DNA of 64,000 bases, taken from assembly GCA_964016885.1 (NCBI GenBank), contig OZ024743.1:227230001-227294000 (forward strand). Direction: 5' to 3'. Positions 99-61,170 of this stretch are shown piece by piece (within the stretch, counting starts at the first letter, position 1; each line of letters begins with the position of its first letter). This DNA comes from Eledone cirrhosa. Lineage: Eukaryota. A model generated the notes under the pieces. It searched no databases and was not told the DNA's origin. It saw only the letters and a list, made by a program, of their open reading frames with translations. Position numbers and translations under genes: made by a program.

Positions 99-331
99 AT
101 CGTCAGGACGGTCCCTCCCACCGCTTGCGACTGCTGGACTAGAAGACGGGCGAGAATATATAGTTTCCTATTCCTATTCCTATTCATTTTCTATTATAAG
201 TTGAGCCAACTTATGCAGCTTCATATGCAAATGAGATTAATCATCTCCTTTACACAGACGAGAAAACTTATATATTCTCGCCTGTCTTCTAGTCCAGCAG
301 TCACAAGCGGTGGGGGAACCGTCCTGACGAT
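99..331. repeat. Divergent inverted duplication (~63-bp arms) of hammerhead-bearing element sequence
   Basis: 99-162 is the near reverse complement of 269-331; the left arm ends just after the CTGACGA core. Confidence 0.85.
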
Positions 332-362
332 GGCCAGTTAAGCCTGAAATGCATAGACAGTT
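316..362 (+). ncRNA. Minimal type I hammerhead ribozyme motif (Penelope-like)
   Basis: Stem I AACCGTC/GACAGTT, core CTGACGA (324-330), stem II GGC/GCC, GAAA (346-349), palindromic stem III ATGCAT, triplet AUA. Confidence 0.75.
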
Positions 363-1117
363 GTCCACCTTGCTTCTACTGGACATCACCAGAGGGCGTC
401 AGCCCCCCCCCCCCCGGTGTTTGCAGGGCTACGGCTTCCTAAAACCGTATTTCTTTGGAGATACGAAATATTTATACATATTGTATAAAGCTATGCTTGA
501 AGCGAATTCCTATTTCTTTTCTCTCTCTATATATATATATAAGTTTATTTTAAGAACTACCTGGTTGAGTGCTTATTCGATTTGTGTTATTTATGCAATT
601 GTTTGCATGATATACACATACTGAATTCATTTCCCAACATCTGGGGTTTTTCCCCTTGTGAATTACACATGTGCTTTTACGAAGCTCTATGTCATTCACA
701 AAATTGGTACAGAGCAAAATACCTGTTGATAACGTGATACTCCTTGTTCGATCATTATACCTAAAGCTTATAGTTTTAAGCAAACAGTATTATTGATTTA
801 GGTATCATAGAAACCCTGCATTTCCATTTTACCATCAATTCCAATGGGTCCAGGTCTGTTTTTTTTATCATTTATTTTGTTTTGATCTGTTTAGCTTGAT
901 TTGCTTTTTGGCTTAGATGGTTAATGCTTTCTTGACCACTTTTACGGTTTGTATGGCGTTTTGGCATATTGTTTAGCTCTGTTTTTTTAACTATGGAGCG
1001 CTTGCCAGCATAACTCTGAATTTTGCGTTTCGTTTCGCTTTTTCTACTCGCCGAAATACGATTCTCGCTGAATTTATATATATATATATATATATATATA
1101 TATATATATATATATAT

Positions 1118-1248
1118 GAGGAAAAGAAATCGAAAATGTAACTGGAATCTTTTTGTAAGAATGTTTATTTATTTCCTTTATCGGTTTCACATTTCTTATG
1201 CTTTTCAAAAATATAATTGAGATGGAGGGTTTGTGGTTTGTCTCGCAT
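1118..1248 (-). mobile_element. Short TA-embedded element, family A, with a U3-A8 hammerhead-like motif (1175-1211)
   Basis: Minus strand reads TTGAAAA-GCAT-AAGAA-ATGT-GAAA-CCGA-TA-AAGG; homologous to 25868-26132 and 35424-35570; flanked by (TA)n. Confidence 0.7.
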
Positions 1249-1547
1249 ATATATATATACTAAAACAAAGCAACAAAACGCACAAAAACAGCTGGAGTAA
1301 GAAGAACACCAACACCCACACCAACAATAACCAGACCAAAAATAACCACAGTAACACCACCGACAACAGTAACTATAACTATAATGGAATTAACAACAAA
1401 CTCAACAACTATAAACAGAGCAACTATATCCATAGTGACAAAAGCCACAATACAATGACAGAGGTAACAATACTACTACCACCACTACCAACAACAACAG
1501 CATCTACAAGCATCACAACCATAAGAGTTATAACAAAACCATAATAA

Positions 1548-1727
1548 CTGTTTCCACTTTTGGCACAAGGCCAGGAATTATCTCAGTTCATTACTGGTAC
1601 TTTATTTTATAGAACGAATGATGAAATGCAAAGTTAACCTCGGCGGGATTTGAAGTCAGAACGTAAAGGGCCGTAACTCTATGCTGCACAGCATGGCGTC
1701 CGACCCTCTACCGATACTGCCCCAAAC
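1548..1727 (-). mobile_element. tRNA-derived SINE, family with a Meta/Sauria-like central domain
   Basis: B-box-like TTCAAATCCC on the minus strand; 3' end GGCCTTGTGCC...GAAAC shared with many copies in the window. Confidence 0.7.
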
Positions 1728-3809
1728 CCATAATAACTGATAATAACATCAACAAATACCTCCACTATAACAGCCACAACAATAACAATAGCAATAGTAA
1801 CACATACTGAGAAGATATCGAGAAATACAATAGCAGCCACAAAATAAGAACAACAACAAAAGCTACAACAACGACAACCACTAAAATAACCACAGCTACC
1901 ACAGTGACCACCACCACGAAAATCTCCACGACGCCAACACCACCATCACCACTGCCATCACTACTGCTGCTGCTATTATAATGGTAAACGATTTTATGCA
2001 GACTTTGTACAGAACTCAGATTTGGTAGATAGATAAATATATATGTGTGTGTGTGTGTGCATATATATATATGTTTGTGTGTGTGTATATATATATGTAT
2101 ATATGTATATATATATATATATATATATATATATATATATATATATATATATATATATATATATATATATATATACACACACACACATATATATATATAT
2201 ATTATATATATATATATATATATATATATATATATATATATATATATATATATATATATATACACACACAAGAGAAAAGAGAGAGTGAGAGAGAGATAGG
2301 GATATATATATATATATATATTTAATACAGTAACAGAGATAGTTTAAATATATATATATATATACATATATATATGTGTGTGTGTATGGTGTGGGCCTTC
2401 ATTCCACTCCTTACTTTCCTATGTAGCGAGATATGTAAAGGTCAGGAGGTATTTCTTTAAAATTAATCTTGCTTGTCCTTCAAGCATAATAATGCACTTG
2501 ACCTTTCACTTAAAACTATATACTATTCTTACTCACACATTCGGATATACATACATACACTAACTCACGCATAAGGATATACGCATATATTCTTAAACAC
2601 ACATTCCAATATACATACATATATACACACACATTCGGATACATATATTTACAAACGCATTCAGTTATACATACACATATTTACATATATGGTTTTATTC
2701 ACATTTGGATATAAATACACAAATCCGCATTCGCAAATATAAAGGTTTATATGCCTATGCATCGCTGTTTATGTATGTATGTTTGTATTTATGTATATAT
2801 ATATATATGTATATATATATATAAATATATATATATATATATATATATATATATATATATATATATATATATATATATATATATATATATATATATATAT
2901 ATATATACTTAGATATAAAATAATACATCTATATCTAGACATACATACAAACGTACAATCATATATATGTATATATATATATATATATATATATATATAT
3001 ATATATATATATATATATATATATATATATATATATATATATATATATATATATATCCCGCTCACTCTATATACGTGTGTCTAAAGGTATAAATATATAT
3101 ATATATATAAATATATATACATATATTTATTTACACACATTCGTATATAAACACCCGCAAATATAAACATACAGATATATACTTGTCCGTGTATCTTTCT
3201 TTATGTTTATATGTATGTATGTATTTATTCTTAAACATGAAATACGTATATCTTTATATATATATATATATATATATATATAAATACATACACGCGGTCA
3301 CACACTTACATACACACACATATATATATATGTGAGCGTGTAAGTCTTTAAATACGTGTATCTATGTATGTATGTATGTAAGTATGTATGCATGTATGTA
3401 TATATGTATGTATATATTTATGTATATATGTATGTATGTAAAGTGGTGTAATTTTGCAAGCAATATGTCATGCCACAATATCCTTTATTTGATGTTAGGA
3501 AGAAAAATTAACCAAAACACAAGAGACAATTGCCTCTCTGTGTGAGACCACAACATTCCTTAGTGTTAGGAACTGGGAGAGGAAGAGGTGGTGGATGGAC
3601 AGTTAGAGGGTTAGGAGCAGGTTTACAAGTTGTTGGGGAGGGTTATCAATGGTAGTAGGTGGAGGAGAGACTTTATTAATAGAGGTGGTAGTAATGGTGT
3701 AGCTTTCCTGATGGCATTCCTGCTATGTGATGATGACACTGGAAGAACTTTCGTGATAATGATTATGGTGACGTTTCGGATGCCAGTAGTATTGATACGG
3801 ACAAAATTA

Positions 3810-59292: not shown

Positions 59293-59338
59293 ACCGAGCT
59301 GATGATCCACCGCGTAAGGTGAAACACTTGTTATCGGT
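59293..59338 (+). ncRNA. Degenerate hammerhead motif in a TA-flanked insert (59219-59370)
   Basis: ACCGA/TCGGT stem I, CTGATGA (59299-59305), GAAA (59321-59324), CA-CT-TG stem III. Confidence 0.55.
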
Positions 59339-59531
59339 AATGGTGAACTAACTGTTGTGGAACTATTACTTATATATATATACTATATATATATATATAT
59401 ATATATATATGAAAATGAAAATGAAAATGAAAATGAAAATGAAAATAAAAATGAAAATGAGCGGAACAAGTAAACATTAAACAATCTTTGAAATAAATTA
59501 AAATACGATTTAAATATTCACCTGTTCTAGG

Positions 59532-59611
59532 GCTGTGACCGACGGTTTTGCTTATCAAAAGATTGGAAATTCAGAGAATTTCCAATGGAAAATATTAACT
59601 CTTCAGACAGC
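59532..59611 (-). ncRNA. Type I hammerhead with a G12A substitution
   Basis: GCTGT/ACAGC stem I, CTGAAGA, long stem II with TTGGAAATT/AATTTCCAA, AAAA in place of GAAA, CCG/CGG stem III, GUC. Confidence 0.7.
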
Positions 59612-60268
59612 TATTTCCATACCACAGGGAACAAAGCCTTGTAGTAGTAGATATATCGCCTTCAACCCAATGCATGAGGTCAGGCCGTTAAAGTGACTCA
59701 CACATAACTAGGCCATAAGAAAAAGCAGGAATTATAGACTTGTTGAAATTACATGTTACTAGATACATGTTACACGATACAACATTTTTTTCTCTACATA
59801 GAAGGTGAATACAAATAAATGATATAAATATTCCAGTAGGCACTAAGTACCCCCGGAAATATACATGGTGTCTATAACAGTTGTTGTTCGATGTATATAT
59901 ATATATGTAAAAGGTAAACAGAAATAACAACACAATCGATACAGTACATGGAAGGGATATATTAAGTTAACGCTACATATACAAACAAACAATACTGACT
60001 TAAGCGAAATATAAATAAATAAATAAATATATATATACACATGCACAATAACAACAAACACATATAAACACACACTAATAAACTAAGATAGAATACAATA
60101 ACCAAACCACAGTCACCCAAACGCGAACACACACACCAAACACTATACACATACGCAAACGCATGCGCAGAGACGAAGACAAAAATAAATAAATAAATAA
60201 ATAAATAGATAAAATAAAAATGGCGTAGACATTACAATACATACAATACAGTAGGGGAAACATGATAA

Positions 60269-60320
60269 TAGTACCACTGATGATGTTGCAGATGTGCAAC
60301 GAAAGAACTTTGTTAGACTA
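60269..60320 (+). ncRNA. Degenerate hammerhead motif
   Basis: CTGATGA-T-GTTGC-AGATGT-GCAAC-GAAA; stems I and III eroded. Confidence 0.5.
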
Positions 60321-60342
60321 TATATATGTGTTTATATCAATG

Positions 60343-61170
60343 TATAAATGAAAGGTAGAGTTAATAACTCATACTGAAACCCTGTAATTAACAAGCTCAA
60401 AGTATAAATACTGAACATTATAATAATAATATATGCAGTAATAAACACAGCAAATTGTGTGTCTAATATTACGAGGGTTGAAGAACCACATTTGTTTGAA
60501 ATATTTTACAATGCAGCAGACAGAATGATAAAAAATATTTATACAGACCGCCTCAATAACGATTACATCTCCCGGACAGATTAATCTGTTTCGCCCTGAG
60601 TGTGTTTGTAACAGATAATCCACGGGCATCATCAGCGAGAGAATCTGATTAAATGCGACAAACACCTAATGCTAACAGTCACACAAAAAAGTGAATACTT
60701 CACCTCGTGCGCCGTAAGTCAAAAGTGGTGTGAGTGGATTGGCCTGAAATAACAGCCCAATACACACAACTTATAAGCTCATCTAGGAAGGGAGCCGAAA
60801 TATAAATGAAAGGTAGAGTTAATAACTCATACTGAAACCCTGTAATTAACAAGCTCAAAGTATAAATATTGAGCATTATAATAATAATATATGCAGTAAT
60901 AAACACAGTAAATTGTGTGTCTAATATTACGAGGGTTGAAGAACCACATTTGTTTGAAACATTTAACCATGAAACAGACAGAATGATAAAAATATTTATA
61001 CAGACCATAATCTGTCCTGGAGATGTAATCGTTATTGAGGCGGTCTGTATAAATATTTTTATCATTCTGTCTGTTTCATGGTTAAATATTTCGAACAAAT
61101 GTGGTTCTTCAACCCTCTTAATATTAGACACACGGTTTACTGTGTTTAACATTGCATATATTATTATTAT
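60343..61170. mobile_element. Retrozyme-like locus: 458-bp unit (~1.45 copies, - strand) plus an inverted arm
   Basis: TATAAATGAAAGGTAGAG at 60343 and 60801; 61008-61170 is an inverted copy starting inside hammerhead stem III. Confidence 0.85.
60568..60642 (-). ncRNA. Type I hammerhead ribozyme
   Basis: Stem I TCTCTCG/CGGGAGA, CTGATGA+T, stem II GCCC/GGGC, GAAA, palindromic stem III CAGATTAATCTG, GUC. Confidence 0.85.

What the first reader, a model, noticed from the sequence alone, without database searches (positions are those of the whole stretch)
316..61170. Dense, multi-family population of hammerhead-ribozyme retroelements hidden in (TA)n microsatellites
Seen: about 16 complete or near-complete type I HHR motifs (starting at 316, 1175, 5530, 26003, 35460, 35896, 37270, 37867, 39420, 40472, 57200, 57483, 59293, 59532, 60269, 60568) plus mirrored halves at 19290 and 35327. 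They belong to about 11 families with no other obvious similarity, are non-coding, and nearly all abut (TA)n. Known: Penelope-like elements (PLEs) carry minimal HHRs in their pseudo-LTRs, and metazoan retrozymes are tandem HHR repeats that yield circRNAs. Inference: this genome hosts a very large and diverse TA-targeted ribozyme retroelement system (about one motif per 4 kb here), mobilised in trans and invisible to ORF-based annotation. I cannot tell whether these families are already catalogued.
Basis: partly seen in the sequence, partly recalled or inferred. Interest (0 to 1): 0.93.

Follow-up and report, generated by a model that had tools for sequence, protein, structure and literature searches.

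The report
Penelope-element hammerheads in TA microsatellites
These self-cutting RNA motifs are real and very numerous, but they are the leftover tail ends of a known class of jumping genes (Penelope-like elements) and their short non-coding hitchhikers, all of which insert into TA repeats.

Summary
The motifs are real. Nine of the 16 named sites are complete type I hammerheads (0.1 expected in shuffles). The other seven are decayed or atypical, mostly copies of families intact elsewhere, and both 'mirrored halves' are truncated hammerheads. A 390-kb genome sample gives about 70 strict motifs per Mb (roughly 2x10^5 in 3.0 Gb), 38 of 41 within 200 nt of (TA)n.

Five families (8 of 18 sites) are the 3' ends of ORF-bearing Penelope-like elements (PLEs) of three lineages. 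One has an intact 938-aa RT/GIY-YIG frame between two hammerheads. Four families are ORF-less 320-460-nt tandem units, i.e. retrozymes. Hammerheads in PLE ends, the U3-A8 core, (TA)n targeting, tails and inverted copies are all published.

Not found in print in my searches: this scale in this lineage; an 18,547-copy family with a U4A core; and a rule that the two arms of inverted insertions end at different 3' sites (37 of 42, never the same), the inner one at a TATA-like match to the target. Cleavage and expression are untested.

The parts
324..355 (+). Family D hammerhead, complete, C3-G8, palindromic stem III; element about 98-527 with inverted 5' arm, ends at (TA)7; ORF-less 332-nt tandem unit elsewhere
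1179..1208 (-). Decayed family A-like hammerhead (U3-A8); element about 1118-1246 between TA tracts
5535..5569 (+). Family E, one core mismatch, with a decayed inverted partner just upstream; origin unresolved
19151..19347 (.). Family M inverted half pair with tail, between TA tracts; 3' end of a Hydra-type PLE; 52,348 exact copies of a 24-mer
26007..26036 (-). Family A hammerhead, complete, U3-A8; element 25867-26131 with inverted short arm
35179..35382 (.). Family M inverted half pair with tail
35464..35493 (+). Family A hammerhead, complete; element 35422-35566; pseudo-LTR of the Neptune-like PLE in L071; 11,093 exact copies of the motif
35904..35953 (+). Family B hammerhead, complete; element about 35742-36090 with inverted arm and tail
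37295..37331 (-). Family C hammerhead, complete, U3-A8; inverted arm
37897..37933 (+). Family C hammerhead, complete; direct arm 37593-38102 is 1.6 units of a 320-nt ORF-less repeat
38586..38626 (+).
39430..39495 (-). Family F, two defects here, core intact in 4 of 4 other copies; partial tandem, period 534
40480..40559 (-). Family G hammerhead, complete; inverted insertion about 40272-40789
57207..57245 (+). Decayed family H; intact copies follow a PLE endonuclease frame in L134 and L030
57491..57539 (-). Family B hammerhead, complete; shared 5' sequence runs at least 950 nt upstream without an ORF seen
59299..59333 (+). Family I, two changes; 3' end of a Hydra-type PLE (L058, L138, L083, L084)
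59537..59606 (-). Family J, G12A here; intact ORF-less 459-nt dimer in L072
60277..60310 (+). Family K, core and stem II intact, weak stem I; element 59898-60350 plus 61172-61346, 3' end of a third PLE lineage (L064)
60575..60635 (-). Family L hammerhead, complete; ORF-less 458-nt unit, insertion 60343-61184 nested inside family K
63857..63897 (-). Second family N motif (A at position 4), element 63741-64000, ends at (TA)22

Best explanation
The window is a graveyard of endonuclease-bearing Penelope-like elements (PLEs) of at least three lineages plus short ORF-less derivatives (non-LTR retrozymes), all inserting into (TA)n. Shown from sequence: (1) the hammerhead sits 40-250 nt from the element's 3' end, in the pseudo-LTR; (2) five window families are joined to PLE frames elsewhere; (3) four families are 320-460-nt ORF-less units with the same junction at independent loci; (4) copies have variable 5' ends, two fixed 3' ends and usually an inverted second arm. 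Inferred: the PLE protein cuts both strands of (TA)n and starts reverse transcription at two internal RNA sites downstream of the hammerhead, one cut end at each site. That gives a head-to-head insertion with the tail on one arm only, and because synthesis usually stops early most copies keep little more than the hammerhead. The template must still be continuous across the cleavage site (uncut read-through RNA or a re-ligated circle). The ORF-less units borrow the same protein in trans. Hammerheads with palindromic stem III probably cut poorly alone and better as dimers or with protein.
For: L071: stop-free 938-aa frame with RT and C-terminal GIY-YIG, flanked by 99%-identical repeats that each carry the family A hammerhead, then (TA)37. 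Family A follows that frame type in 12 further loci. M and I follow a Hydra-type endonuclease end; K and H follow a third type. 10,595 GIY-YIG candidates in the genome, 150 scored. Shared unit junctions for C, D, L, J, longest frames 33-87 aa; a 422-bp hammerhead array in random locus L109. In 85 loci, 42 distinct adjacent inverted insertions: 37 long+short, 5 with one arm at another site, 0 with two like ends; 6 have a tail-only long arm, which excludes simple fold-back. Compensatory pairs in stems II and III among 22 related motifs; with positions 3 and 8 left free, 35 of 39 hits are C-G or U-A. Literature: PMC4209133, PMC8557442, PMC11167929, PMC7229834, 10.64898/2026.07.22.740005.
Against: No cleavage or expression data: no RNA run was listed. 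Families B, E, G, N are tied neither to a frame nor to a tandem unit. F is tandem at one locus only. Clade names rest on motifs, not a tree. In the Anolis PLE studied in vitro, both strands used both start sites alike and priming was without homology (PMC11167929), which does not predict the strict long+short rule. The L071 frame is stop-free but its N-terminal region upstream of base 1380 is in another frame, so no fully intact master was shown.
Confidence: 0.9

Rival explanations
1. One reading: all families are non-autonomous ribozyme elements, a system separate from ORF-bearing PLEs and mobilised only in trans.
For: No PLE frame in the window; C, D, J, L are ORF-less tandem units; 18 of 20 best full-length hits to family A began at nearly the same 5' point or lacked the upstream UTR.
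Against: That fixed 5' point was a query artefact: 30 loci taken in genome order have variable 5' ends and reach into the 3' UTR and ORF. Five families follow PLE frames at a fixed distance and strand.
Confidence: 0.06
2. The motifs are conserved RNA folds that no longer cut (protein-binding or start-site signals, or passengers); self-cleavage plays no part in spread.
For: Family N reached 18,547 exact copies with A at core position 4 (100 of 100 listed); family K has a weak stem I in every copy. Hammerhead mutants did not impair Anolis PLE insertion in vitro (PMC11167929), and minimal PLE hammerheads cut poorly in vitro (PMC4209133). Insert 3' ends lie downstream of the cleavage site.
Against: Core, 3-8 covariation and stems are kept across about 41 clusters, which implies selection in master copies; more-than-unit tandem copies fit circular templates. 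This rival concerns function and is compatible with the PLE identity.
Confidence: 0.3
3. The long+short arm rule comes from fold-back second-strand synthesis or from later DNA repair, not from two separate priming events; the TATA at the short end is only where the copied strand re-anneals to the target.
For: In many pairs the two arms have nearly the same 5' breakpoint, often at a hairpin such as stem II of family M; solo copies with either end exist.
Against: 6 of 42 insertions have a long arm that never reaches the short site, and several more have a short arm running further 5' than the long arm.
Confidence: 0.3
4. Chance matches in AT-rich, repeat-rich DNA, or hairpin DNA transposons (MITEs) misread as ribozymes.
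For: One-defect matches do occur by chance (several of 8 look spurious); Rfam gives no hammerhead hit at gathering score; M copies look like perfect hairpins.
Against: 9 against 0.1 and 16 against 0.2 in shuffles; multi-copy families with covariation; M hairpins are truncation-inversion products of a longer element.
Confidence: 0.01

Closest known systems
Minimal type I hammerheads in PLE pseudo-LTRs (Cervera and de la Pena 2014, PMC4209133)
   Same: Palindromic stem III, extra base after A9, U3-A8 core variant, mostly solitary copies or close opposite-strand pairs, few inside full PLEs.
   Different: Counts there: about 2,000 plus 1,300 (Schistosoma), 4,000 (coelacanth), 9,000 (Xenopus); here about 2x10^5 by extrapolation. 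A fixed U4A core is not in the parts read.
Neptune/Nematis-type and Hydra-clade PLEs (Craig et al. 2021, PMC8557442)
   Same: C-terminal GIY-YIG, Cys linker, pseudo-LTR tandem, inverted 5' copy, tail at one end, microsatellite bias; Hydra families carry hammerheads and almost all insert in (TA)n.
   Different: Tails here are 40-96 nt rather than 30-40; three lineages share the target in one genome; clade placement not tested by tree.
Non-LTR retrozymes (Cervera and de la Pena 2020, PMC7229834; Li et al. 2026, 10.64898/2026.07.22.740005)
   Same: Short ORF-less tandem units with one type I hammerhead; monomers, dimers and arrays; PLE-derived; U-U at the base of stem II known from axolotl.
   Different: Units here are 320-534 nt, carry PLE-type minimal motifs and insert in (TA)n; circular RNA not shown. 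Axolotl has 126,247 motifs in a much larger genome (size recalled).
Poseidon of Anolis in vitro (Frangieh et al. 2024, PMC11167929)
   Same: Two internal RT start sites define the tail; both strands cut and extended; AT-rich target; cleavage site upstream of the start sites.
   Different: There priming is without homology and strand-indifferent; here the inner site matches the target (TATA/ATAT) and the two arms use different sites.
L1 twin priming (recalled, no call)
   Same: Both cut ends prime on the RNA and give an inverted arm.
   Different: Here both primers start near the 3' end at two fixed sites, so the arms usually overlap and duplicate the hammerhead.

Membership tests
Type I minimal hammerhead | Conserved core with stems I-III in type I order | tested here: met
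   9 of 16 named sites complete; 0.1 in shuffles
Type I minimal hammerhead | Covariation in stems and at positions 3-8 | tested here: met
   stem I was partly fixed by the search pattern
Type I minimal hammerhead | Self-cleavage | not testable with these tools
   no assay; no RNA run listed
Type I minimal hammerhead | Rfam hammerhead model at gathering score | tested here: not met
   none among the 150 listed of 170 matches in the window; family C scores 25.5 bits against 52 for HH9
EN+ Penelope-like element (families A, M, I, K, H) | Single frame with RT and GIY-YIG upstream of the motif | tested here: met
   A: L071; M, I, K, H: partial or broken frames at fixed distance
EN+ Penelope-like element (families A, M, I, K, H) | Pseudo-LTR tandem, tail, inverted 5'-truncated copy | tested here: met
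   full tandem seen for A only; tails for A, M, I, K, H; inverted copies counted for A and M
EN+ Penelope-like element (families B, E, G, N) | Linked PLE frame | tested here: inconclusive
   none within 1.5 kb upstream for B; B and N do have tails and inversions
Neptune clade (family A) | C-terminal EN with CX2-5CxxC linker and CCHH motif | tested here: met
   the linker is shared with Nematis (PMC8557442)
Neptune clade (family A) | RT tree placement | not tested
Hydra clade (families I, M) | CxCX5C linker, no CCHH, CxxC and CxH around the EN end, (TA)n target | tested here: met
   L058 shows linker (across its copies), Cys-free EN core, CxxC, CxH in one copy; L181 shows CxxC and CxH only
Hydra clade (families I, M) | RWK and DKT motifs, tree placement | not tested
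   N-terminal parts not fetched
Non-LTR retrozyme (C, D, J, L) | Short ORF-less unit in tandem, two complete hammerheads in a row | tested here: met
   L195 (C), L199 (D), L072 (J); L has a shared junction but no direct dimer seen; no complete direct dimer inside the window
Non-LTR retrozyme (C, D, J, L) | Expressed as unit-length linear and circular RNA | not testable with these tools
   hold no run on record as RNA

The most novel reading that the evidence does not exclude
In this lineage PLEs anneal the two cut ends of the self-complementary (TA)n target to two fixed UA-rich sites in their RNA, one end per site. This one rule would account for microsatellite targeting, the one-sided tail and the inverted arm, and would differ from the homology-free priming seen for Anolis Poseidon. 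The system has left some 2x10^5 hammerheads, including an 18,000-copy family with a U4A core that is either a new natural active variant or proof that cleavage is dispensable in vivo. If the host is an octopod, many 'unclassified SINE' families could be these elements.
Probability: 0.4. Interest if true: 0.7.

Novelty: new member of a known kind. Interest (0 to 1): 0.5.

Why it matters
It is probably among the densest hammerhead populations in an animal genome (about 70 per Mb), and Rfam misses it. It puts autonomous PLEs of three lineages and their retrozyme passengers side by side in large copy numbers, so PLE insertion can be studied from thousands of natural junctions. Two open questions become testable: how the tail and inverted arm arise, and whether hammerhead cleavage matters in vivo (family N is a natural experiment). 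For repeat annotation, short TA-flanked repeats that would be filed as SINEs or MITEs are PLE ends.

Tried and rejected
Rfam scan: only microsatellite-driven miRNA noise in the window; weak HH9 hits for family C. Fixed-length family A element: suggested, rejected by the unbiased loci. Family M as a MITE hairpin: rejected. Families H and K as Naiad-type cores without stems: the frame upstream has a C-terminal endonuclease, and H has a 4-bp stem I. Expression: no RNA holder listed; laying two contig runs of unknown kind on family C showed presence and TA junctions only. Host group: homologue searches gave named hits only from bivalves and symbiont bins at 45-49% for the PLE protein and no names for the window's LINE protein, so the host stays unverified. 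Earlier findings: nothing on record. Pfam gave no hit for the Hydra-type and third-lineage fragments. The repeat finder was swamped by microsatellites.
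Full report
SETTING. The window is G000:C4:227230001-227294000 of a 3.0-Gb genome, AT-rich and full of (TA)n. Genome size, a few very large chromosomes and repeat make-up suggest an octopod cephalopod. That is recall and was not verified: named homologues of the PLE protein were bivalve or symbiont-bin entries at 45-49% and other look-ups gave no names.

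OBSERVATION. I wrote a type I descriptor (core C3-G8 or U3-A8, stems I-III scored). It finds 9 complete motifs in the window, all among the 16 named, against 0.1 in 40 local dinucleotide shuffles; a stricter setting gave 7 against 0.03. The other 7 named motifs are decayed or atypical. Five have intact relatives elsewhere, 60269 has a weak stem I in all copies seen, and 5530 has only its own inverted partner. The halves at 19290 and 35327 come from family M, whose full copies have a U3-A8 core and all three stems. With positions 3 and 8 left free, 444 kb gave 28 C-G, 7 U-A and 4 other hits, while two shuffles gave 13 scattered hits with no C-G. Among 22 related motifs of the family B group, stems II and III show changes on both sides of pairs. 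13 of 16 motifs are within 250 nt of (TA)>=6.

SCALE. 39 stretches of 10 kb at round coordinates (one further request did not exist) gave 41 strict motifs in 389,800 nt against 0.2-0.3 per 200 kb in shuffles. Fifteen came from one array; without it, 26 in 380 kb, or 68 per Mb, about 2x10^5 for the genome. With it the figure is 105 per Mb (bootstrap 44-197). 38 of 41 lie within 200 nt of (TA)>=6 against 23% of random points. The sample is small and not formally random, and the descriptor misses families such as N, F, H and K. Exact counts: 11,093 for the family A motif, 52,348 for a 24-mer of M, 18,547 for N, with 0 for each reversed control. All fetched loci hold 102 distinct strict motifs in 41 clusters (these loci are enriched by design).

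IDENTITY, ORF-BEARING FAMILIES. A GIY-YIG search gave 10,595 candidates. L071 has a stop-free 938-aa frame with RT, a Cys linker and C-terminal GIY-YIG, between two 99%-identical repeats that each hold the family A hammerhead, followed by (TA)37. This is the textbook pseudo-LTR-ORF-pseudo-LTR unit, with Neptune/Nematis-type motifs as defined in PMC8557442. Thirty family A loci taken in genome order have variable 5' ends, mostly an inverted arm, and two fixed 3' ends. Families M and I follow a Cys-free endonuclease end with the Hydra-clade motifs (PMC8557442 section 11). K and H follow a third, divergent PLE frame, which I recall as Nematis-like. No PLE frame lies in the window.

IDENTITY, ORF-LESS FAMILIES. 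C (320 nt), D (332), L (458) and J (459) are partial tandems whose unit junction is shared between the window and an independent locus, with longest frames of 33-87 aa. F is tandem (534) in the window only. Random locus L109 is a 422-bp hammerhead array whose unit contains a TA tract. These fit non-LTR retrozymes. B shares at least 950 nt upstream without a frame; B, E, G and N stay unresolved.

MECHANISM. Copies end downstream of the cleavage site, so the template was uncut or re-ligated (inference). In 85 loci of A, M and B, 42 distinct insertions had an adjacent inverted arm: 37 paired a long 3' end with a short one, 5 had one arm ending elsewhere, none had two like ends (pairs hit twice counted once by hand; the B set was chosen by best match). 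In 6 the long arm is only the tail, so the short arm was primed separately. At the short end the template continues as TATA or ATAT for at least 4 nt in 8 of 11 families as scored, against 3.7% of background positions. Family A was mis-anchored in that script and has 4 nt, making 9 of 11; M has 3, I has 2; H and K are related, so the 11 are not fully independent. In L071 the long end continues as a 7-nt AT tract; family C's end has little match. I infer twin priming from both cut ends of the palindromic target. Two start sites explaining the tail, cutting of both strands, and dispensable cleavage in vitro are published for Anolis Poseidon, where priming was homology-free and strand-indifferent (PMC11167929); that is evidence against generalising my reading.

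U4A FAMILY. The main text of PMC3088659 mentions U4C, not U4A (figures and supplements not seen). It may be a new active variant or a dead ribozyme in a successful element.

WHAT IS KNOWN. Read: PMC4209133 (parts 1-2 of 4), PMC11167929 (parts 1-3 of 4), PMC8557442 (passages, sections 6, 11, 15), PMC7229834 (passages, section 15), 10.64898/2026.07.22.740005 (part 1 of 5 and passages; supplements not seen), PMC13282606 (part 1 of 3 and a term search: no 'ribozyme' or 'hammerhead' in the main text, 893 recently active unclassified SINE families and 31 PLE families; supplement listed, not read), PMC8967140, PMC3088659 and PMC12602865 (passages). Together they cover hammerheads in PLE ends, U3-A8, solitary and inverted copies, tails, (TA)n targeting and PLE-derived retrozymes. 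Ten searches listed no paper on hammerheads in cephalopod repeats, on PLE twin priming or on a natural U4A core. The library lacks most subscription papers, and Repbase and Dfam were not searchable, so the PLE families may be catalogued without their ribozymes. Schistosoma may reach a similar density (recalled).

VERDICT. Real and abundant, a new set of members of known kinds, with two modest novelties (arm-end rule, U4A family) that need bench tests. Interest 0.5.

Noticed in passing
window 9526-14901 +: Apparently intact L1/Tx1-like LINE: 634-aa frame with a zinc knuckle and 1156-aa frame whose homologues carry APE, RT and zf-RVT domains.
   Followed up: partly
window 49353-49799 +: 148-aa frame resembling a restriction-like endonuclease end of an R2/R4-type element (recalled), beside (ATAC)n tracts; repeat 27428-27879 matches 49941-50395 at 95%.
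   Followed up: no
window 60343-61184: Family L inserted into a short internal TA tract of a family K copy and splits it.
   Followed up: yes
L109 (G000:C28:110000001-110010000): 422-bp satellite array with 15 strict hammerheads in 10 kb and a TA tract in each unit; a 511-bp relative in L081.
   Followed up: partly
L018, L006, L013, L014, L090: Stuttered 5' junctions of family A: the first 6-15 bases repeated between TA tracts, suggesting slippage at the end of synthesis.
   Followed up: no
L054:3104-3137, L014: Relatives of family C with a C3-G8 core in the same flanks where C has U3-A8: the covariation within one lineage.
   Followed up: partly
window 1541-1721, 3798-3987, 7092-7201, 7700-8114, 30129-30941: Another high-copy repeat family, often in inverted pairs, with no hammerhead found; probably a SINE-like or hairpin element.
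   Followed up: no
window 61753-63102 +: Broken frames resembling APE and RT-flanking parts of a CR1/RTE-type LINE (recalled).
   Followed up: no
loci L001-L194: Different PLE families often sit end to end in the same TA tract (for example M, A, H-like tail and B at window 35165-36175), so tracts act as landing pads that fill up.
   Followed up: partly
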